NCBI GenBank assembly: GCA_963773815.1
Contig: CAVZCI010000003.1
Span: 219,669 to 283,668 of the forward strand
Direction of reading: 5' to 3'
From: an uncultured Acidobacteriota bacterium
GTDB lineage: Bacteria; Acidobacteriota; Thermoanaerobaculia; UBA5066; DATFVB01
Length of the DNA: 64,000 nucleotides
The notes beneath the pieces are model-generated. The model searched no databases, was not told the DNA's origin, and saw nothing but the letters and a program-made list of their open reading frames with translations. Made by a program: the position numbers and the translations under genes. Each line of letters begins with the position of its first letter. Within the stretch, counting starts at the first letter, position 1. This document shows positions 3,883 through 60,509 of the stretch, one piece after another.

Positions 3883-4860
3883 CTAGGACTTTTCTTTCAT
3901 CTCTTTGAGCGCCGCGGCGTCGCCCGCCGCAAGGTCCTTGTCGAAAATCTTCACGTAGGCGGACTTGCGGAGATCGGCGAGATACTCCGCGAATTTTTTG
4001 TCGTAGATCTCTTCCGACATTTTCTTGCGGATTTCCTCTTTGACTTCGTCGAACGGGCGGAAGCCGGCCGGCTGCCGGCTTGTGACCGCGAACAGCGCGT
4101 AGCCGCCGCGGACCGGCACCGGCGACGAGAGGTCTCCGCCGAAGATCGCCGAGTCGACCTCCTGGGTGAGGTCGCCTTTCGCGACGATGCCGAGGTCTCC
4201 GCCCCGGTCCCGGGCGGGGCCTTCCGAAATCTCTCTCGCGACGTCCGCGAACGCCGCCCCGGCCTGGATCCGTTTCTGCGCCTCTTCGATCTTCGCCCGG
4301 GCGGCCTCCTGCGAGGCGGGGTCGTTCGGCGCGAACCGGACGAGGATCTCGGAGACTTTCGCTTTCTCGGGCACGGCGTAGAGCTTGTCCTTGGTTCGTT
4401 CGTATTCGGTTCGGAGGGCGTCGTCGTTGAGGTTGATCGGGACTTCGCGCGCGAGCAGCTTGTTCGTCAGGAGGGATTCCCGCAGCTGCGTCCGGAGGAG
4501 GTCCTTCGTCAGCCCCTGCGCGGCGAGCGCGCGGTCGAACTCCTCGTCGCTCTTCATCCCGTACTGGTTCTTGACGCGCTCGACGGCTTCCGCGATCTCG
4601 TCTTCCGACATGGTCAGACTCAGGGCCGCGGCCTTGTCGTCGACGAGCTTCTGGCGAATCATCTGCTCGAGCACGATGAGCCGGAGACGGTTCGCGTCCT
4701 GCGGAGCTGCCGGATCCAGCCGGGCCCGCTCGACATGGCGGTCGAGGTCTCCCTGCGAAATCATCGAATCGCCGACCCGCGCCACGACGCGGTCGACGAG
4801 CTCCGCCGCGCCGAGCGTCAGCGGGAGGCCGAGGGCGAGAAGACAGGCGAGTTTTTTCAT
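3883..4860 (-). CDS. surA: SurA-like periplasmic peptidyl-prolyl isomerase/chaperone
   Basis: Signal peptide MKKLACLLALGLPLTLGA, VDRVVARVG SurA N-domain, rotamase motif FADVAREISEGPARDRGGDLG. Confidence 0.82.
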   Translation of the reverse strand: MKKLACLLALGLPLTLGAAELVDRVVARVGDSMISQGDLDRHVERARLDPAAPQDANRLRLIVLEQMIRQKLVDDKAAALSLTMSEDEIAEAVERVKNQYGMKSDEEFDRALAAQGLTKDLLRTQLRESLLTNKLLAREVPINLNDDALRTEYERTKDKLYAVPEKAKVSEILVRFAPNDPASQEAARAKIEEAQKRIQAGAAFADVAREISEGPARDRGGDLGIVAKGDLTQEVDSAIFGGDLSSPVPVRGGYALFAVTSRQPAGFRPFDEVKEEIRKKMSEEIYDKKFAEYLADLRKSAYVKIFDKDLAAGDAAALKEMKEKS

Positions 4861-5706
4861 GATTCCTTTCCTGGCGGGAGAAACTCTCCCGTGTAGACGA
4901 ACGGCAACCGGTCCGGAAAGACGCGAACGCCCTGCTCGCGCCGCGCGTTCGTCGACGAGCGATTGAAGATAACGGTCGGCTTTCTCCCGAAGCAGGCGCC
5001 GGCGGATCTCCGGCCCGGCCTGTTCGATCGTGAGCTCCCGGGCCCCCGCCCGGTCTTCCGCCTTGAAGATCAGGTACCCCTCTTCCGCCGCGATCACCGG
5101 CGACATCTCTCCCGCTCGCAAACGAAAAATCGCTTCTTCGAATTCCGAAGGAAGGTCTCCGCGTTCGACCCAGCCCATCTGCCCGCCCGATGCGGCGTCG
5201 GGAGAGCGGGAGATCGCCTGCGCGACTTTCGCGAAATCCTCGCCTTTCGAGATCCGCAGGCGCGCCGAGTCGGCTTCGTCCCGCTGTTTCGTGAAGATCC
5301 TCTCGACTCTCACCTGTTCGGGCTTCCGATATCTCTCGCGGTGCAGATCATATTCCCTCTGAACGTCCTCCGCCGTCGGGAGGACGGCCGATCCGGCGCG
5401 GGAGAGCAGCAGGGAGGGGGCGTTGAGGCGGTCGACGACATCGTCGCTCCCCGAGAGCTTCGCGGCGGCACGCCAGATCTCTTCCCGCAGGAACTGATCG
5501 AACAGTCCCGAGACGACTTTCGGGGAGGATTCGGCGATCGGCCTTCCGGAGTTCGCCTCGAAGTACGCGCGAAAGGCTCGAAGGGAAACCGGCCTTCCCG
5601 CGACGAGCGCGGCGGTGTCGACGGAAATCGCGGGCGCGCGCCTCGCGCAGGCGGAAAAGGCCGCGCACGCGAGCAGGACGAGTCCGGCCGCGGCTGTCCG
5701 TCTCAC
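4857..5706 (-). CDS. PpiC/parvulin-type peptidyl-prolyl isomerase, probable lipoprotein; frameshift near 4950
   Basis: GTG start overlaps the mfd stop; lipobox-like FSAC; FAKVAQAISRSPDAASGGQMGWV rotamase motif; the stop overlaps the surA ATG in another frame. Confidence 0.8.
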
Positions 5707-8700
5707 GCGGCCTCCGGCAGCAGGAGGAGGTCGAGAAGGTCGATGACGGCCGGGATCGGCGTCTCCCCGGGGAGCGTCACGATGCCGGGCGGCGTCAGAG
5801 CGGCCCCCGAGACCCGCCCGATCGCGCGCACGAGGCGCGCGGGATCGACGCGGGCGCTCTCCTCGAACACGATCCGGTACGAGCTTCCGCGCTTCTCCAG
5901 CGAACGGATCTCGAGCTGCTCGGCGCGGCGGCGCAGCCGGCCGTATTGGAGGAGCCGGGCGACGGACTCCGGAGGGGCTCCGAACCGGTCCTCGGTCTCT
6001 CTCGCGATCTCGAAGATCTCGGAGTCGTCCCGGGCGCGGGCGATCCGCTTGTAGAGAGCGAGGCGCAGGCTTTCCTCGGGCAGGTAAGAAGGCGGGATCG
6101 AAAGCTCGTGGCCGAGCGAGATCGTGACGGTGCGTTCCTCCCGCACCTCTTCCCCGCGGAGCTCGCGCATCGCCTCGTCCAGGAGATCGAGGTACATTTC
6201 GAGCCCCACGGCGTTGATGTGGCCGGACTGCTCGGCGCCGAGAAAGTTGCCGGCTCCCCGGATCTCGAGATCCTTCGCGGCGATCCGGAACCCGGCCCCG
6301 AGGTCGCAGAATTCGCGGATCGTCGCGAGGCGGGCCCGCGCGGTTTCCGTCAGCGCCGCGTCCGGCTCCACGACGAGGTAGCAGTACGCGGCCTTGTCGC
6401 TTCGTCCCACGCGGCCCCGGAGCTGGTAGAGCTGCGAGAGGCCGAACGTGTCGGCCCGGTCGATGAGGATCGTGTTGACCGAAGGGATGTCGATCCCGTT
6501 TTCGAGGATCGTCGTCGCGAGGAGGATGTCCGATTTTCGCGAGACGAAATCCAGCATCGTCTTCTCGAGCTGTCCCTCTCCCATCTGTCCGTGCCCGACC
6601 GCGATACGCGCTTCCGGAAGCACGCTCCTCGAGAAACCTCTTCTCGGCGGCGATCGAGTCGACGCGATTGTGGATGTAGAAGACCTGGCCGCCCCGCGCG
6701 AGCTCGAACGCGATCGATTCCCGGACCACGTCGGCGCTCTTCGGAATGATCTGGGTCTCGATCGCGAGCCGGTCGCGCGGCGGCGTCTCGATGATCGACA
6801 GGTCGCGCAGCCCCGACAGGGAGAGGTTGAGGGATCGCGGGATCGGCGTCGCCGACATCGACAGCACGTCGATCGAGGCCTTCCACTCCTTGATCTTTTC
6901 CTTCTGCGCGACGCCGAAACGCTGTTCCTCGTCGATCACGAGCAGGCCGAGGTCGCGGAACCGGATGTCCTTCGAGAGGAGCCGGTGCGTCGCGATGAGG
7001 ATGTCGACCGTGCCTTCCGCGAGCTTTTCGGCGACCTTCTTCTGCTCCGAGCGGTCCCGGAAGCGGGAGAGCAGCTCGATCGTGACCGGAAACGACGAGA
7101 ACCGCCGCGTGAATGTTCGGAAGTGCTGGTCCGCGAGAATCGTCGTCGGGGCGAGCACGGCGACCTGCTTGCCGTCCAGAACGGCCTTGAACGCGGCGCG
7201 CATCGCGACCTCCGTCTTTCCGTAGCCGACGTCGCCGCAGAGGAGCCGGTCCATGGGAACGGGCCTCTCCATGTCGCGCTTCACGTCCGTGATCGCCTGG
7301 GCCTGGTCGGGGGTTTCGACATATTCGAACGCGTCTTCGAACTCCTTCTGCCACGGGGAGTCCTTCGAGAACGCGAAGCCCTGCGCCTGCGCTCGCCGCG
7401 CGTACACGCGCAGGAGGTCCTGCGACAGGTCGCGAACGGCCTTGCGAACGGCCGACTTCTTTCGCGACCAGGAAGCGCCTCCGAGACGGTCGAGCTTCGG
7501 CTCCGCGCCCTCCGCGCCGGAATATTTCTGGATCCGGTCGAGCTTCTCCACGGGGAGCAGCAGAGTCTTCTCCTCGCCGTAGGAAATCTCGACGAATTCG
7601 CGTTCTTCCGCGCCGACGGGAAGCCGTTTCAATCCGAGGAATTTCCCGACGCCATAATCGAGGTGCACGACGAAATCCCCGGGCTTCAGGTCGCGCAGGT
7701 CCGACAGGAACGCGTCGGCTGCCCGCTTCCGGGTCGGCGAGGCCGTTCGGTCCGCGCCGAAGATCTGCTCCTCCGAGACGAGGGAAAAACCGCTGCGCCG
7801 AAGGCGGAAGCCGGCCGAAATCTCGCCGGTGAAGATTTCGAGGGAGTCGAGCCCGTATTCCCGCGCGAGGCGCTGAAGCTTTTCGGCTCCGCCCCGGGGA
7901 TGGACGGCGATGCCGACCCGGGAGCCCGAGTCGAGCGCGATTCGGATCTGCGCGACGGCGTCGGGCAGCCTCCCTTCGAACGAGGGGAGCTCTTCTCCCG
8001 AGAGCTTCACCGGGATTCCCGGCGAGAGGCCGAGGCGGTCGAACAGAAGACCGGCGCGGGCGGCGATCGCCGATTCGACGTCCGAAGCCGCGTGGAGGAT
8101 CTCCTCGGGCGGGATCGCGGCGACGTCCGGGTCGTAGTCCTCGCGGATCCGTGCCTCCCACTCTTCGAGCGCGGCCGCGACGGACGCCGGCTCCAGCACC
8201 GCGACCATGGCATCCGGCGCGTGATCGAAAATCGTCGAAGCGCTCCCCGCGACCGCCGCCGAGAAGAGGGTCCGCTCCGCCGCGCTCGGGGGATGGCCGA
8301 GGCGCCGCTCGAGCCGGACGTCGGCGTCCCGCGACTCGGAGACCGCCGAGAGGGGCGCGATGACGACTCGTTCGAGCCTCGCCTCGGAGCGCTGCGTGTC
8401 GGGATCGAACGTGCGGAGGGATGCGACCTCGTCGCCGTCGAGCTCGATTCGGAAGGGCCGAGGGGAGTCGGCCGGGAAGACGTCCACGAGGCCGCCCCGC
8501 GCCGCGAAATCCCCCATCTCGAGGACGAGATCGGACCTCGTGTATCCCTCGCGGACGAGAAACGCGAGGAGCTCTTCCCGCGAGAGAGGGGTCCCCGCCG
8601 TGATCGAGAGCTGCCGGGAGGAAAATGACTCCCGGGTGGGAAGGCGCGAGCCGAGGAATCGGGCGGGAACGGCCGCGAGACGGCACGTTCCGTTCGCGAG

Positions 8701-56067: not shown

Positions 56068-56499
56068 CTACTTCGGCAGCGTCACCTTGAATTCGATCCT
56101 CGCCAGCTGCTCCGGCGCCTTGCCGATCTTGCGCAGGAACGGCAGCCAGCGCGGGTCGGCGTGGATCTTGTCGAACAGGTTGTCCGTCAGTATGTCGCCG
56201 AGGCCGGTGTCGACATACTTGACCGCTTTGTCGAGCCATTCGAACGCCTTGTCACCCTCGCCGCGGTAGGCGTAGACGTAGGCGATGTTGTAGGGCCCGT
56301 CCTTTTCGAATTTCGCGATCAGGGCGGCCAGCGCGGCGTCCGAATCGGCCTTGCGCCCGAGCGCGTGGTACGCCATCGGCAGGCCGATCATCTTCCACAT
56401 CTCGATCGTCTCGTGCTCGAGCTCCGCCAACGCGCCCTGCGCGTCGCCCTTCAGCAGCAGCGCATTGCCGAGTTCCGCGTGCGCGGCGCCGCGGCCCGG
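56068..56499 (-). pseudogene. C-terminal fragment of a TPR-containing signalling protein
   Basis: AYVYAYRGE.DKAFEWL.KA, DPRWLPFLRKIG; no N-terminus. Confidence 0.7.
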
Positions 56500-56564
56500 G
56501 GAAATGCCATGTGGTCGATGTAGCCGTCCAGGGACTGGTTCATTCCAAAGACAAACTTCGCCAT
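56500..56564 (-). pseudogene. N-terminal stub of a dihydrofolate reductase/RibD-C family gene
   Basis: MAKFVFGMNQSLDGYIDHMAF, then an abrupt switch into the TPR fragment. Confidence 0.65.
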
Positions 56565-56566
56565 GC

Positions 56567-57603
56567 TCAGCGCGCGCCGATGCGCAGAAGCGACTTGGTC
56601 GCGCGGCGCTGATCCATCGCGTCGTACGCTTCCCGGACGTGTTTCAGGGTGGTTTCGAAGTCGAACACGCGTCCGGGATCGATGCGCCCGTCCAGCACGT
56701 CCGGAAGCAGTTCGGGAATGTATCTTCGAACCGGGGACACGCCCCCGCGGAGGCCGATGTTGCGGAAAATGACTGTGTTGATCGGCACCTCGACGCCGTG
56801 CGGAGCGCCGATCGCGCCGACGACCGAGCCCGGCCGAGCGATCGCAAATGCGGTCTGCATGGATTCGTTCACGCCAACGCATTCCAGCGCCGCATCGACG
56901 CCGACGCCGTTCGTCATTTCGAGAATTCTCTTGCTGGCCTCTTCGCCCCGCTCGGGCAGCACTTCGGTTGCTCCGAACTCGCGGGCGAGCTTCTGGCGAG
57001 TGGGATTTCGGCTCAAAGCGATGATGCGCTCGGCTCCCAGTCGCTTCGCGGCGATGATGGCGCACAGTCCCACGGCGCCGTCGCCCACGAGGGCGACCGT
57101 GTCGCCTTTTGACGCCGGCGCTCGCCGCCGCATGGTGACCGGTGCACATGACGTCCGTGAGCGTGACGAGCGATTTCATGACCTCGTCCGATACCCGAGA
57201 CTCCCGAACGCTGACGAGTGTCGAGTCCGCGAAAGGGGCGCGCACGGCTTCGCCCTGGCCTCCGTCGACGCCGTGGTTCCCGAACGAGCCCCCGCGGGCG
57301 CAGTTCGAAGTCCATCCGGCGCGGCAGTGCGGGCAGGTGCCGTCGTTGAATGTGAAAGGCGCGACGACGAAATCGCCCTTTCGGATGCTGCGGACTTCCG
57401 TCCCCGTTTCCTCGACCACGCCGATGAATTGTGGCCAATCGGCCCCGGCGCGTGGGCGACTCGCCGCGGTAATACCAGAGGTCGGAGCCGCAAACGCTGC
57501 CCAGGACGACGCGGACGATAGCATCGGTGGGTTCCTGGATGACAGGATCGGGGCGTTCGCCGAGGTCGATGGAACGGGGCCCGCCGTAAATCGCGGCTCT
57601 CAT
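56567..57603 (-). CDS. Zinc-dependent alcohol dehydrogenase family; multiple frameshifts (pseudogene or read errors)
   Basis: MRAAIYGGP, VCGSDLW, GH-EFIG, C..C.HC, GDGAVGL, FRNIGLRGG. Confidence 0.8.
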
Positions 57604-58151
57604 CGCTTCGGGATCATCGCGCGACGGGGAAGATCGGCCGCGAGCGCCCACCAGAGCGCGAACGGCAGCGCGAACATGCCGGCGATCCGATAAAAATGCG
57701 CGCCCGTCGCCCAGAAATTCCGGCCGAACGACCCGTAGTGGGCGCGGCTCCACTCGCCGAGGTCGAGCGCGTAAAGAGACTCGACGGCGAACACGAGCGC
57801 AAGGACGTGCGAGAGATAGAGAAGCGCGCACGCGAGGAGAAGCCGACCGAGTCCCCGGTCGGACAGGGGTTTTCGCGTGGAGGCGAAGAGGGCGCCGAGC
57901 AGCGCGATGTTGAAATCGAGGTCGGAAGCCGGAATGCCCGGCCGGGGAGAGGAGGGGGGGAAATCCTCGCGATCGACGATCACCTCCCTGTCGCTCGCCT
58001 TCAGCCGCGTCTCCCCGGGCGATTCGAAAGAGCGAATCAGGAGCTGCGCGGGCGCCGCGACGGCGGCATGGTACGGCCCGGCGAAAAGAAACCAGAGCGC
58101 GGCGCCCGCGAGAAAGCCCGCGGCTGCCTTCGCGAAAATCTCAGGCCGCAA
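57600..58151 (-). CDS. Exosortase H-associated membrane protein; start uncertain
   Basis: Four TM segments; directly downstream of and overlapping the exosortase gene. Confidence 0.7.
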   Translation of the reverse strand: MRPEIFAKAAAGFLAGAALWFLFAGPYHAAVAAPAQLLIRSFESPGETRLKASDREVIVDREDFPPSSPRPGIPASDLDFNIALLGALFASTRKPLSDRGLGRLLLACALLYLSHVLALVFAVESLYALDLGEWSRAHYGSFGRNFWATGAHFYRIAGMFALPFALWWALAADLPRRAMIPKR

Positions 58152-58647
58152 CGCGATTCGCGGCACGCCCGGCCCATGCGACGAAGAATCCCACACCGAA
58201 CAGGACGACGATCGTCTGCCACACGAGCGTGTGGGCCGGCCCGAACCAGGAGGGCCGGTGAGCGCCGATCCAGAAAAGCGTGACGACCCGCACCAGATTG
58301 ACGGCCTGGATCGCGAAGAAGCCGCCGAAGATTCCGGCGGCGCGCGCTTTCCAGCTCGCGGGAAACGCGAAAACCGCTGCCGCGAGGAGGAGCACCGTCT
58401 CGAGTCCGTTGCATCCGTTCTCGATGTTGACGGAGAACTTTCCCGAGGAAATGACGGTTCCCGCCACGGAGACCCTTTCGCCGAGGGTCCGGAGGAGCGC
58501 TGCGGAGATTCCCGCGACGGCCGACGTGAAGGGGACGACGACGTGGTCGTTGACGGGATGGACTCCGATCACGACATAGAACGCAACGAGCAGAATCCCG
58601 AAGAGAACGAGGAAACGCGCGGGAGAACGGCGACGAGCGGGTTTCAT
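58141..58647 (-). CDS. xrtH: Exosortase H-type (exosortase/archaeosortase family) transpeptidase
   Basis: Catalytic triad context IENGCNG (Cys), NLVRV (Arg), AHTLVWQ (His); 168 aa, multi-TM. Confidence 0.85.
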   Translation of the reverse strand: MKPARRRSPARFLVLFGILLVAFYVVIGVHPVNDHVVVPFTSAVAGISAALLRTLGERVSVAGTVISSGKFSVNIENGCNGLETVLLLAAAVFAFPASWKARAAGIFGGFFAIQAVNLVRVVTLFWIGAHRPSWFGPAHTLVWQTIVVLFGVGFFVAWAGRAANRVAA

Positions 58648-58904
58648 CGCCGGAACCGCTCGAACCGGTAGGCCAGTTCCGGGCCGCCCTTTCCTTCGTA
58701 CGCGAGCCGGGCGACGAGCAGCGCGAACGGCTCGGTGTAGCGGGCGACTCGTGCGGTTCCCTGCGTCCGGCGTCTGGAATTTGGTTCGCGAGCCGCTGCA
58801 GCTTCTGGTCGCTGCGCGCATAGCTGAAAACCACCTCGTGCCCGGCGGCGCCGATCGTCCCGATGCCGCCCAAAACCGGATCCCGAGGATGCCGATCCGC
58901 ATGC
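58644..58904 (-). pseudogene. Internally deleted NADP oxidoreductase (F420-dependent family) remnant
   Basis: MRIGILG...GHEVVFSYARS N-terminus joined to the family-like C-terminus ARYTEPFALLVARLAYEGKGGPELAYRFERF. Confidence 0.65.
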
Positions 58905-58919
58905 GCACCTCTCCTTTCC

Positions 58920-59333
58920 CTACGGACAGTCGAAAGCAGCGGTGTCTTCGATGGGCGGAAACGGGGTTCCGAACGCGCTGCCATAATTCCGGACGGCTCC
59001 GGTCTCCGTGTCCGTCACGGTGATGCTGACCTCGACGTTCGTCAGGCCCCCCGCGAAGACCCAGGCGTGGCCGTTGATCGCGCACCCGTCGAGAACCTTG
59101 ACGATGATTTCGACATTGGAGCTGTCGAAGAACCAGAAATAGCCGCTCTGGTCCGTCAGGGGAACGGCGTTCGACAGGATCAGGGGACTCAATCCCGGAC
59201 CGATCTTGAAGGCCGTCTCGACGGCGAAGCGGGAGGCGTTCAGGCAGAGAGTGTGAGAGTCGGGAACACACGAGCCGGCGCGCGCCGCCGCGGAAGCCAG
59301 GAGAAACGCGACCGAAATCAGGAGTCGTTTCAT
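58920..59333 (-). CDS. Secreted protein made of a single uncharacterised Thermoanaerobaculia-type domain
   Basis: Signal peptide; CLNASRF..GYFWFFDSSNVEIIVKVLDGC..WVFAGGLTNVEV..VTDTETG..DTAAF; GGAGG RBS. Confidence 0.8.
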   Translation of the reverse strand: MKRLLISVAFLLASAAARAGSCVPDSHTLCLNASRFAVETAFKIGPGLSPLILSNAVPLTDQSGYFWFFDSSNVEIIVKVLDGCAINGHAWVFAGGLTNVEVSITVTDTETGAVRNYGSAFGTPFPPIEDTAAFDCP

Positions 59334-59423
59334 GGCCGACCCTCCTCTGTCGAAGCACGATACTCCTCCGCCGGCGCGTTGTGCCATCCGGGCCGCAGGC
59401 GGCCCCGCAGCGCCGCCGCGCCG

Positions 59424-60509
<1,086 letters not shown>

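What the first reader, a model, noticed from the sequence alone, without database searches (positions are those of the whole stretch)
58920..59333. Stand-alone secreted copy of the uncharacterised GYFWFF-VKVLDG domain next to an exosortase
Seen: a signal peptide plus a single about 115-aa domain with four Cys (CVPDSHTLCL, DGC, terminal CP). From memory, not from a search: this domain is appended in many copies to the C-termini of secreted Thermoanaerobaculia proteins and has no assigned function. Inference: it is a surface-targeting or polymerising module, analogous to a secretion CTD or S-layer anchor. A free-standing form adjacent to an exosortase could be the structural subunit or adaptor of an undescribed surface-display system.
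Basis: inference. Interest (0 to 1): 0.62.

Follow-up and report, generated by a model that had tools for sequence, protein, structure and literature searches.

The report
Free-standing unnamed acidobacterial tail domain
This small secreted protein is a cargo-less copy of a very large, unnamed, disulfide-locked domain that usually ends secreted proteins of Thermoanaerobaculia soil bacteria, and its position beside an exosortase gene is an accident of this one genome.

Summary
Window 58920-59333 (-) encodes a 137-aa protein: a signal peptide plus one 118-aa all-beta domain with four Cys. The domain matches nothing in Pfam, NCBIfam or the PDB. It has 9,698 relatives among 50%-identity cluster representatives. 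It sits, singly or as a tandem pair, at the very C-terminus of unrelated secreted proteins (90 of 99 ORFs in 80 loci), and it is concentrated in Thermoanaerobaculia.

The proposed link to exosortase XrtH fails every test:
- xrtH is real but lies 272 nt away, behind a gene remnant.
- The closest relative (86% nt identity) and all other relatives lack the adjacency.
- 20 other xrtH neighbourhoods hold no copy of the domain, and 80 domain loci hold no xrtH.
- Across 251 genomes the two do not co-occur; the richest genus lacks xrtH.
- The protein ends one residue after its last Cys, so there is no room for an exosortase signal.
- IPTL-CTERM substrates lie elsewhere in the genome.

The gene is under purifying selection (dN/dS 0.16). 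My best reading is an autonomous extracellular binding or tethering module, here without cargo. That function is inferred, not shown.

The parts
58920..59333 (-). Gene for the 137-aa secreted single-domain protein (P0001), stop codon included
   Evidence: Translation; homologues; dN/dS 0.16
59277..59333 (-). Signal peptide, residues 1-19 (MKRLLISVAFLLASAAARA, cleavage ARA|G). Not a lipobox, because Cys22 is a conserved domain residue that is also present in C-terminal copies.
   Evidence: Sequence; conservation; judged by eye, no predictor run
58923..59276 (-). The unnamed ~118-aa all-beta domain (residues 20-137), with inferred disulfides C22-C30 and C84-C136 and a Cys-Pro-COOH end
   Evidence: AF2 pLDDT 90.9; Cys co-loss in 479 copies; terminal Pro statistics
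59341..59345 (-). Shine-Dalgarno GGAGG, 7 nt upstream of the ATG
   Evidence: Read from the sequence
58648..58902 (-). Remnant of an NADP-oxidoreductase gene (MRIGILG..., frameshifted and truncated) filling the gap between the small gene and xrtH. Not part of the feature, but it shows that the two genes are not a tight pair.
   Evidence: ORFs, sequence; the homologous remnant in L116
58141..58647 (-). xrtH (exosortase H): a neighbour, not functionally linked
   Evidence: TIGR04177 116.8 bits against a cut-off of 86
57600..58196 (-). Probable XrtH-associated membrane protein. This gene and xrtH are the only part of the region that is syntenic with genomes of the same genus and family.
   Evidence: NF041730 at 20.7 bits, below the cut-off of 35; synteny limited to 57628-58632

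Best explanation
P0001 is a Sec-exported, cargo-less member of a very large, unnamed domain family centred on the class Thermoanaerobaculia. The module is about 115 residues, all-beta, and stapled by two disulfides (C22-C30 and C84-C136). It normally forms the last one or two domains of otherwise unrelated secreted proteins (PKD, LRR, BNR/sortilin propellers, BACON, FN3, peptidases, cupredoxins), and the chain then typically ends in Cys-Pro-COOH. Shown here: the family, its architecture, its distribution, purifying selection on this gene, and the absence of any tie to XrtH. Inferred: the module is an autonomous extracellular binding or association domain. It would hold its passenger non-covalently on a shared partner, either a cell-envelope or matrix component or another copy of the module, rather than act as a cleaved export tag. 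The free-standing form would bind the same partner without delivering anything, for example as a cap, competitor or cross-linker. Its position 272 nt upstream of xrtH results from a local rearrangement in a decaying gene neighbourhood and has no functional meaning.
For: Family and architecture:
- 9,698 representative clusters match at E<=1e-3.
- The last copy ends within 15 aa of the C-terminus in 129 of 149 top proteins and within 12 aa of the stop in 90 of 99 ORFs from 80 genomic loci.
- No Pfam, NCBIfam or PDB sequence match. No Foldseek match for two independent confident models.
- Partner domains are adhesin-like, propeller or Ig-like.

Autonomy of the domain:
- 49 of the listed homologues are signal peptide plus a single domain.
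- This gene has dN/dS 0.16 against a relative that is 86% identical in DNA.
- About 10% of proteins carry the module directly after the signal peptide at the N-terminus.
- Tandem pairs are common, joined by variable low-complexity linkers.
- AF2 gives pTM 0.79 for a 275-aa tandem pair despite a disordered linker, which suggests the two copies pack against each other.

No XrtH link:
- Class-wide 2x2 table of 110/41/89/11 (both / domain only / XrtH only / neither), odds ratio 0.33.
- No domain in 20 xrtH neighbourhoods, and no xrtH in 861 kb around 80 domain copies.
- Synteny with the same genus and family covers only the xrtH pair.
- In the closest relative, L116, homology stops 47 nt past the stop codon, and a convergent amidohydrolase follows instead of xrtH.
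- IPTL-CTERM proteins lie elsewhere in the genome.
Against: No ligand, partner or localisation is known, so the binding function is inferred from architecture only. The very strong C-terminal bias also fits a sorting tag. So does the selection for a terminal Pro: 72.5% after the last Cys of terminal copies against 8% for internal copies. The pTM argument for copy-copy packing has no PAE behind it, and AF2 can over-pack duplicated domains. No conserved neighbour gene was found that could point to a partner. The same-genus genome G104 has no free-standing orthologue, so the cargo-less form is not a core component.
Confidence: 0.5

Rival explanations
1. The module is the cargo-recognition tag of an undescribed secretion or surface-attachment pathway. 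It would be functionally like the T9SS C-terminal domain, read at the free Cys-Pro-COOH end.
For: About 90% of proteins carry a copy at the exact C-terminus. 176 of 200 terminal copies stop one residue after the last Cys, and that residue is Pro in 72.5% of terminal copies against 8% of internal copies. Some genomes hold dozens to more than 100 candidate copies. The family is lineage-restricted.
Against: Cargo-less free-standing copies are common and under purifying selection. Tandem duplication is the rule in many proteins. About 10% of proteins carry the pair at the N-terminus, directly after the signal peptide. No linked machinery was found in 861 kb of flanks. There is no sequence or fold similarity to T9SS CTDs. 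SprA was not detected in 34 genomes, although the control did not ring, so that test is inconclusive.
Confidence: 0.2
2. The module is a carbohydrate-binding (lectin or CBM-like) domain. It would target its passengers to an environmental polymer rather than to the cell's own envelope.
For: An invariant aromatic cluster (W67, F68, F69, W91, F93) and invariant E75, K79 and D108. The fold is a small beta module. Tandem copies would add avidity. It co-occurs with BACON, PKD and FN3 domains.
Against: Partners are rarely glycoside hydrolases: none appeared in the census of 63 proteins. Identity of 50-60% across paralogues and genera suggests a single conserved partner. No CBM family or CBM structure matched. 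Most of the invariant aromatics probably lie in the core, but I had no coordinates to check this.
Confidence: 0.12
3. The module is a homotypic assembly or dimerisation domain. Tandem copies would form an intramolecular pseudo-dimer, single copies would dimerise, and free P0001 would be a building block or chain terminator of an extracellular lattice.
For: pTM is 0.79 for a 275-aa tandem pair whose linker has pLDDT 42-50. Two independent 115-aa bodies should give a pTM of roughly 0.4-0.45 (my arithmetic). Arrays of 3-5 consecutive genes each end in the module.
Against: No PAE or multimer prediction was available. AF2 is known to over-pack duplicated domains. Linkers of 14-70 residues vary freely.
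Confidence: 0.1
4. One reading: free-standing P0001 is the structural subunit or adaptor of an XrtH-dependent surface-display system.
For: P0001 lies on the same strand 272 nt upstream of a genuine xrtH.
Against: A pseudogene remnant separates the two genes. The adjacency is absent in the closest relative, in relatives 68% and 79% identical, in the same genus and family, in 20 other xrtH loci and in 80 domain loci. The genus with the most domain copies lacks xrtH, and 89 genomes with xrtH lack the domain. P0001 has no C-terminal transmembrane sorting signal. IPTL-CTERM substrates exist elsewhere in the genome.
Confidence: 0.03

Closest known systems
T9SS C-terminal sorting domain (type A, TIGR04183 / PF18962 Por_Secre_tail)
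   Same: A small all-beta module at the extreme C-terminus of dozens of unrelated secreted proteins per genome. It is lineage-restricted and shared by adhesins, peptidases and propeller proteins.
   Different: No sequence or fold similarity. This domain has two disulfides. Tandem pairs are frequent. N-terminal placement occurs. Cargo-less free-standing genes are under purifying selection. The host phylum is not known to use T9SS, and SprA was not detected, though that test is inconclusive.
PPC / prepeptidase C-terminal and collagen-binding domains (PF04151), such as the tandem s3a-s3b domains of clostridial collagenases
   Same: A beta module of about 100-120 aa, single or in tandem, at the C-terminus of secreted enzymes, acting as a non-catalytic binding or tethering unit. 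This is the working analogy for the mechanism.
   Different: No sequence match. PPC co-occurs with this module in the same proteins as a separate domain. No Ca-binding motif is evident. This family ends in Cys-Pro-COOH with a terminal disulfide.
Exosortase sorting signals (IPTLxxWG-CTERM TIGR04174 for XrtH; PEP-CTERM)
   Same: Both are C-terminal features shared by many secreted proteins of a genome. An exosortase gene lies nearby in this window.
   Different: Exosortase signals are tails of about 25 aa made of a motif, a transmembrane helix and a basic cluster. This is a folded 115-aa domain with no transmembrane segment, and the protein ends one residue after its last Cys. The genome's IPTL-CTERM proteins are different genes.
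Anchoring and assembly modules of surface proteins (SLH domains, dockerins)
   Same: Modular, placed at either terminus, often repeated, attached to many different passengers, and highly conserved among paralogues because they share one partner.
   Different: No homology. No cognate partner (an SCWP or cohesin equivalent) has been identified. The host is a diderm.

Membership tests
Unnamed Thermoanaerobaculia four-Cys terminal domain family (this report's HMM) | Full-length match to the ~118-position profile, including the motifs C-x7-LCL, RF-x-V, GYFWFF, NVE-x3-KVL, WVF-x-GGLTNV, VTDT and PIQDT-x-AF-x(1-2)-C | tested here: met
   P0001 is 45-90% identical to family members over residues 20-137. 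All invariant columns are present.
Unnamed Thermoanaerobaculia four-Cys terminal domain family (this report's HMM) | Two disulfide pairs (C1-C2 and C3-C4) and a chain ending in Cys-Pro | tested here: met
   P0001 has C22, C30, C84 and C136 followed by P137 and the stop. The pairing is inferred from co-loss: 426 copies have all four Cys, 37 lack only C3+C4, and 6 lack only C1+C2. The disulfides themselves were not observed.
Exosortase H substrate (IPTLxxWG-CTERM, TIGR04174) | A C-terminal IPTLxxWG motif followed by a transmembrane helix and a basic cluster | tested here: not met
   P0001 ends ...AAFDCP with no tail. TIGR04174 hits in the genome are at C11:515502, C10:306042 and (sub-threshold) C16:284595, none of them in a domain-bearing gene.
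Exosortase H substrate (IPTLxxWG-CTERM, TIGR04174) | Phyletic co-occurrence with xrtH | tested here: not met
   Of 251 class genomes, 110 have both, 41 have the domain only, 89 have XrtH only and 11 have neither; odds ratio 0.33. This is not phylogenetically corrected.
Exosortase H (the neighbouring gene, TIGR04177) | Score above the curated cut-off for the equivalog-level model | tested here: met
   116.8 bits against a cut-off of 86. This applies to the neighbour at 58141-58647, not to the finding itself.
T9SS C-terminal domain (TIGR04183 / PF18962) | Sequence match to the CTD models | tested here: not met
   No Pfam or NCBIfam hit at E<=1 for P0001, and none in 83 family members.
T9SS C-terminal domain (TIGR04183 / PF18962) | Ig-like beta-sandwich fold resembling solved CTDs | tested here: not met
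   Foldseek against the PDB: best E 0.16 with TM<=0.35 for the single domain, and best E 3e-3 with TM 0.14 for the tandem model. No CTD structure is listed.
T9SS C-terminal domain (TIGR04183 / PF18962) | The genome encodes the T9SS core (for example SprA, TIGR04189) | tested here: inconclusive
   0 of 34 genomes matched, but the control genomes did not ring either, so absence is not demonstrated.
Carbohydrate-binding modules / PPC (PF04151) | Sequence or structural match to a curated CBM or PPC family | tested here: not met
   No match on the domain region in 83 members. A PDB profile search returned 0 hits at E<=10. No Foldseek hit.
Carbohydrate-binding modules / PPC (PF04151) | Demonstrated ligand binding | not testable with these tools
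   Needs recombinant protein and binding assays.

The most novel reading that the evidence does not exclude
The module, with its disulfide-pinned free Cys-Pro-COOH end, marks the cargo set of an undescribed surface-retention or display system of Thermoanaerobaculia that is independent of exosortases and T9SS. The receptor or processing factor would be encoded elsewhere. Cargo-less copies such as P0001 would be dedicated components (caps, competitors or lattice subunits) that tune how much cargo is displayed. The module would also represent a fold not yet seen in solved structures.
Probability: 0.17. Interest if true: 0.75.

Novelty: new variant of a known kind. Interest (0 to 1): 0.38.

Why it matters
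Thermoanaerobaculia and related Acidobacteriota are abundant soil bacteria that are rarely cultured. Some genomes attach this one unnamed module to dozens of secreted proteins, and possibly more than a hundred. Knowing what it binds would therefore explain where a large share of their exoproteome ends up: at the cell surface, in the matrix or on a substrate. The family deserves a curated domain model and a solved structure, because about 10^4 clusters at 50% identity are currently labelled 'hypothetical' in that region. The free-standing 137-aa form is the simplest reagent for such work. The finding also carries a caution: adjacency to a sorting enzyme in a single genome is not evidence of a system.

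Tried and rejected
- XrtH linkage was rejected. I tested it by synteny, by reciprocal neighbourhood scans and by presence/absence in 251 genomes.
- I looked for any recurrent neighbour gene in +-6 kb around 80 domain copies, using all-against-all BLAST clustering. No family appeared in more than 7 of 80 loci: a sensor-kinase-like protein in 7 and a TonB-receptor-like protein in 6. Synteny among free-standing loci exists only between close relatives.
- Sequence searches against Pfam, NCBIfam and PDB chains, and Foldseek against the PDB and BFVD, named nothing.
- The T9SS core test (SprA) returned nothing in 34 genomes, but it returned nothing in the controls either, so it is uninformative.
- Four literature searches found no description of the domain, of XrtH in this class or of IPTL-CTERM.
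- The promoter and terminator scan was uninformative.
- A lipoprotein reading of Cys22 was rejected: that Cys is a conserved domain residue in C-terminal copies and is lost together with Cys30.
- In the tree, free-standing copies cluster (14 state changes against about 44 in shuffles). I do not rely on this result, because the free-standing sequences were sampled by similarity to the query.

Full report
**1. What is there.**
Window 58920-59333 on the minus strand encodes a 137-residue protein. A GGAGG Shine-Dalgarno lies at 59341-59345, seven bases before the ATG. The longer 155-aa reading from an upstream ATG is less likely for that reason. Residues 1-19 (MKRLLISVAFLLASAAARA) look like a Sec signal peptide with an ARA|G cleavage site; this was judged by eye, with no predictor run. 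The remainder is one domain with Cys at positions 22, 30, 84 and 136, and the chain ends ...AAFDCP. AlphaFold2 with an 83-sequence alignment gives a confident all-beta model: pLDDT 90.9, pTM 0.81, nine strands and one short helix.

**2. The neighbours.**
All genes described here are on the minus strand.
- Upstream is an intact aldo/keto-reductase-like gene at 59424-60437.
- Seventeen bases after the stop of the small gene comes a new SD and ATG (58900-58902). It opens with MRIGILG and then loses frame. This is the N-terminal remnant of an NADP-oxidoreductase gene.
- xrtH begins only at 58647 and runs down to 58141. It scores 116.8 bits on TIGR04177 against a cut-off of 86.
- A membrane protein at 57600-58196 follows. 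It resembles the XrtH-associated family below threshold: NF041730, 20.7 bits against a cut-off of 35.
- So an exosortase is nearby, 272 nt away, but a decayed gene lies between the two.

**3. The domain family.**
The protein has no hit in Pfam or NCBIfam. A scan of all 83 aligned relatives found no Pfam family on the domain region. A profile search of all PDB chain sequences returned nothing at E<=10.

Foldseek against the PDB and the viral BFVD library gave only noise: best E 0.16 and 0.015, with TM at most 0.38. A second, independent model of a tandem pair also found nothing, with best E 3e-3 and TM 0.14. No AlphaFold DB library was available. The correct statement is therefore 'no detectable solved analogue', not proof of a new fold.

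Yet the family is very large:
- 339 homologues in the length-restricted search.
- 9,698 representatives of 50%-identity clusters at E<=1e-3, of which 8,021 are at E<=1e-10.

**4. Architecture of the family.**
- All of the top 149 representatives carry two or four copies. That list is biased towards multi-copy proteins because scores add up. In 129 of them the last copy ends within 15 residues of the C-terminus, usually at the very last residue.
- A less biased sample comes from 80 genomic loci found by pattern search. There, 90 of 99 domain-bearing ORFs end with the domain and about 7 are free-standing.
- Partner domains are PKD, LRR, sortilin/BNR and other beta-propellers, BACON, FN3, Calx-beta, cadherin-like and Big domains, PPC, trypsin and metallopeptidases.
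- The window's own genome has seven copies. Five end proteins with pre-peptidase-C-terminal-like, LamG-like, cupredoxin-like (after a poly-Pro linker) or unassigned N-terminal parts; I judged these partner assignments by eye. One copy precedes a cupredoxin-like domain. The seventh is the free-standing P0001.
- About a tenth of proteins carry a tandem pair immediately after the signal peptide, at the N-terminus. These are complete genes.

**5. Disulfides and the chain end.**
I examined 479 distinct copies:
- 426 have all four Cys.
- 37 lack exactly C3 and C4.
- 6 lack exactly C1 and C2.
- Only 10 show an odd pattern.

This implies the pairs C22-C30 and C84-C136, so the C-terminus is pinned to the core.

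In 176 of 200 terminal copies the protein stops exactly one residue after C4. That residue is Pro in 72.5% of terminal copies, but in only 8% of cases after the same Cys in internal copies. A free Cys-Pro-COOH end is therefore selected specifically when the module is terminal. P0001 has this terminal-type end.

**6. Distribution.**
- In 251 genomes sampled across the class, 151 genomes (50 of 91 genera) have the domain.
- Across 201 genomes of the phylum, only 9 genomes outside the class have it, with 1-3 copies each.
- All but a few of the 80 best loci in the species-representative collection are titled Thermoanaerobaculia or Acidobacteriota MAGs. The exceptions are three titled Holophagales, one Deltaproteobacteria and one 'uncultured bacterium'.

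**7. Test of the exosortase idea.**
- (a) Closest relatives. P0004 is 90% identical in protein and 86% in DNA. Its homology with the window covers the reductase 3' end and the small gene, and stops 47 nt after the stop codon. Beyond that point the contig carries an oxidoreductase remnant and a convergent amidohydrolase, not xrtH. That sequence has no neighbouring counterpart in the window's genome. Relatives at 79% and 68% identity sit beside a topoisomerase IB gene and an alanine dehydrogenase gene respectively.
- (b) Same genus and family. Genomes of the same genus and family share synteny only over 57628-58632, which is the xrtH pair. In G080, guaA lies upstream of xrtH. The same-genus genome G104 has no free-standing orthologue; its best match is 50% identical and lies inside larger ORFs.
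- (c) Reciprocal neighbourhood scans. Twenty xrtH neighbourhoods of +-6 kb from other genomes of the class contain no copy of the domain. The 861 kb around 80 domain copies contain no xrtH.
- (d) Presence and absence. XrtH is found in 199 of 251 genomes of the class, and the two features do not co-occur: 110 have both, 41 have the domain only, 89 have XrtH only and 11 have neither. The odds ratio is 0.33, not phylogenetically corrected. The genus with the most copies (f14/g32) has no xrtH hit in any sampled genome that carries the domain.
- (e) No sorting signal. Exosortase substrates need a C-terminal motif, a transmembrane helix and a basic tail. These proteins end one residue after a disulfide Cys.
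- (f) Other substrates exist. The genome encodes two IPTL-CTERM proteins above the TIGR04174 cut-off and one below it, in other genes. These are the expected XrtH clients according to the NCBIfam family definitions.
- The adjacency is therefore a local accident in a neighbourhood that shows gene decay.

**8. Is the free-standing gene functional?**
Yes, as far as sequence can tell. dN/dS against P0004 is 0.16, from 26 synonymous and 14 non-synonymous differences. Forty-nine of the listed homologues are likewise a signal peptide plus a single domain. Small open frames of this type occur in many genomes of the class, including the genus that lacks xrtH. On a tree, free-standing copies cluster, with 14 state changes against about 44 in shuffles, and fused copies are interspersed. 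The sampling was biased towards relatives of the query, so I draw only a limited conclusion: switches between fused and free forms have happened repeatedly.

**9. Mechanism.**
Two readings fit a module shared by dozens of secreted proteins: a sorting tag that is read and perhaps removed, or a binding module that holds its passenger on a common partner. I favour the second, for these reasons:
- A tag without cargo makes little sense, yet cargo-less genes are conserved.
- The module also works from the N-terminus.
- It is often duplicated, which gives avidity.
- Paralogues remain 45-60% identical across genera, as expected if all must fit one partner.

The tandem-pair model reached pTM 0.79 although its 40-residue linker is disordered (pLDDT 42-50). 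Two independent 115-residue bodies in a 275-residue chain should give roughly 0.4-0.45 by my arithmetic. AF2 therefore seems to pack the two copies together. This hints at homotypic association, but no PAE was available and AF2 can over-pack duplicated domains.

The terminal Cys-Pro could be a recognition element. It could equally be a cap that protects the terminal disulfide from carboxypeptidases; that second idea is inference. No recurrent neighbour gene points to a partner. All of this is architecture-based inference. Neither ligand nor localisation is known.

**10. Comparison with known systems and verdict.**
The module works most like non-catalytic C-terminal tethering domains, such as PPC/collagen-binding domains, SLH domains and dockerins. 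It shares the 'one tail on many cargos' pattern with the T9SS CTD. It is a member of none of these: sequence and fold tests were not met.

It is an unannotated domain family, and P0001 is a genuine free-standing member of it. Earlier notes from this scan had already flagged the same family in other genomes and reached similar conclusions. I treated them as leads only, and my counts are independent of them.

Noticed in passing
window 58648-58902 (-) and 56451-57524 (-): The xrtH pair is flanked by decayed genes. Upstream is an NADP-oxidoreductase N-terminal remnant (MRIGILG..., frame lost). Downstream is an alcohol-dehydrogenase-like gene split over two frames. The same oxidoreductase remnant follows the orthologous small gene in the metagenomic contig L116.
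   Followed up: partly
class scan, handles G036 and G076 versus G120 (genus g7); genera g6 and g13: Within one genus, two genomes have at least 15 copies of the domain and a third (94% complete, 3 contigs) has none. Two further genera of the same order have none. This is a natural contrast for finding genes that travel with the domain.
   Followed up: no
class scan, family f14 genus g32 (for example G025, G029, G057, G117): This genus has the largest expansion of the domain (up to 161 first-look candidates per genome). It shows no XrtH hit in any sampled genome that carries the domain, whereas XrtH is found in 80 of the 91 genera sampled in the class.
   Followed up: partly
L036 1481-10972; L055 3883-10771; L105 3316-10672; L062 3862-9760: These are head-to-tail arrays of 3-5 consecutive genes. 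Each gene encodes a different secreted protein ending in the module, and the first gene of each array carries a tandem pair.
   Followed up: no
genome contig C16:179343-180242 (+): A paralogue is built from a cupredoxin-like domain, an uninterrupted run of about 35 prolines and the terminal module. This is an extreme rigid-spacer linker.
   Followed up: no
genome contig C14:5242-6327 (-): In this paralogue the module comes directly after the signal peptide and is followed by a cupredoxin-like domain. This copy lacks both C3 and C4, consistent with the inferred disulfide pairing.
   Followed up: partly
L011 (G080) 4518-6569: In a genome of the same family, xrtH is preceded by guaA (GMP synthase). 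The upstream context of the xrtH pair therefore varies even among close relatives.
   Followed up: no
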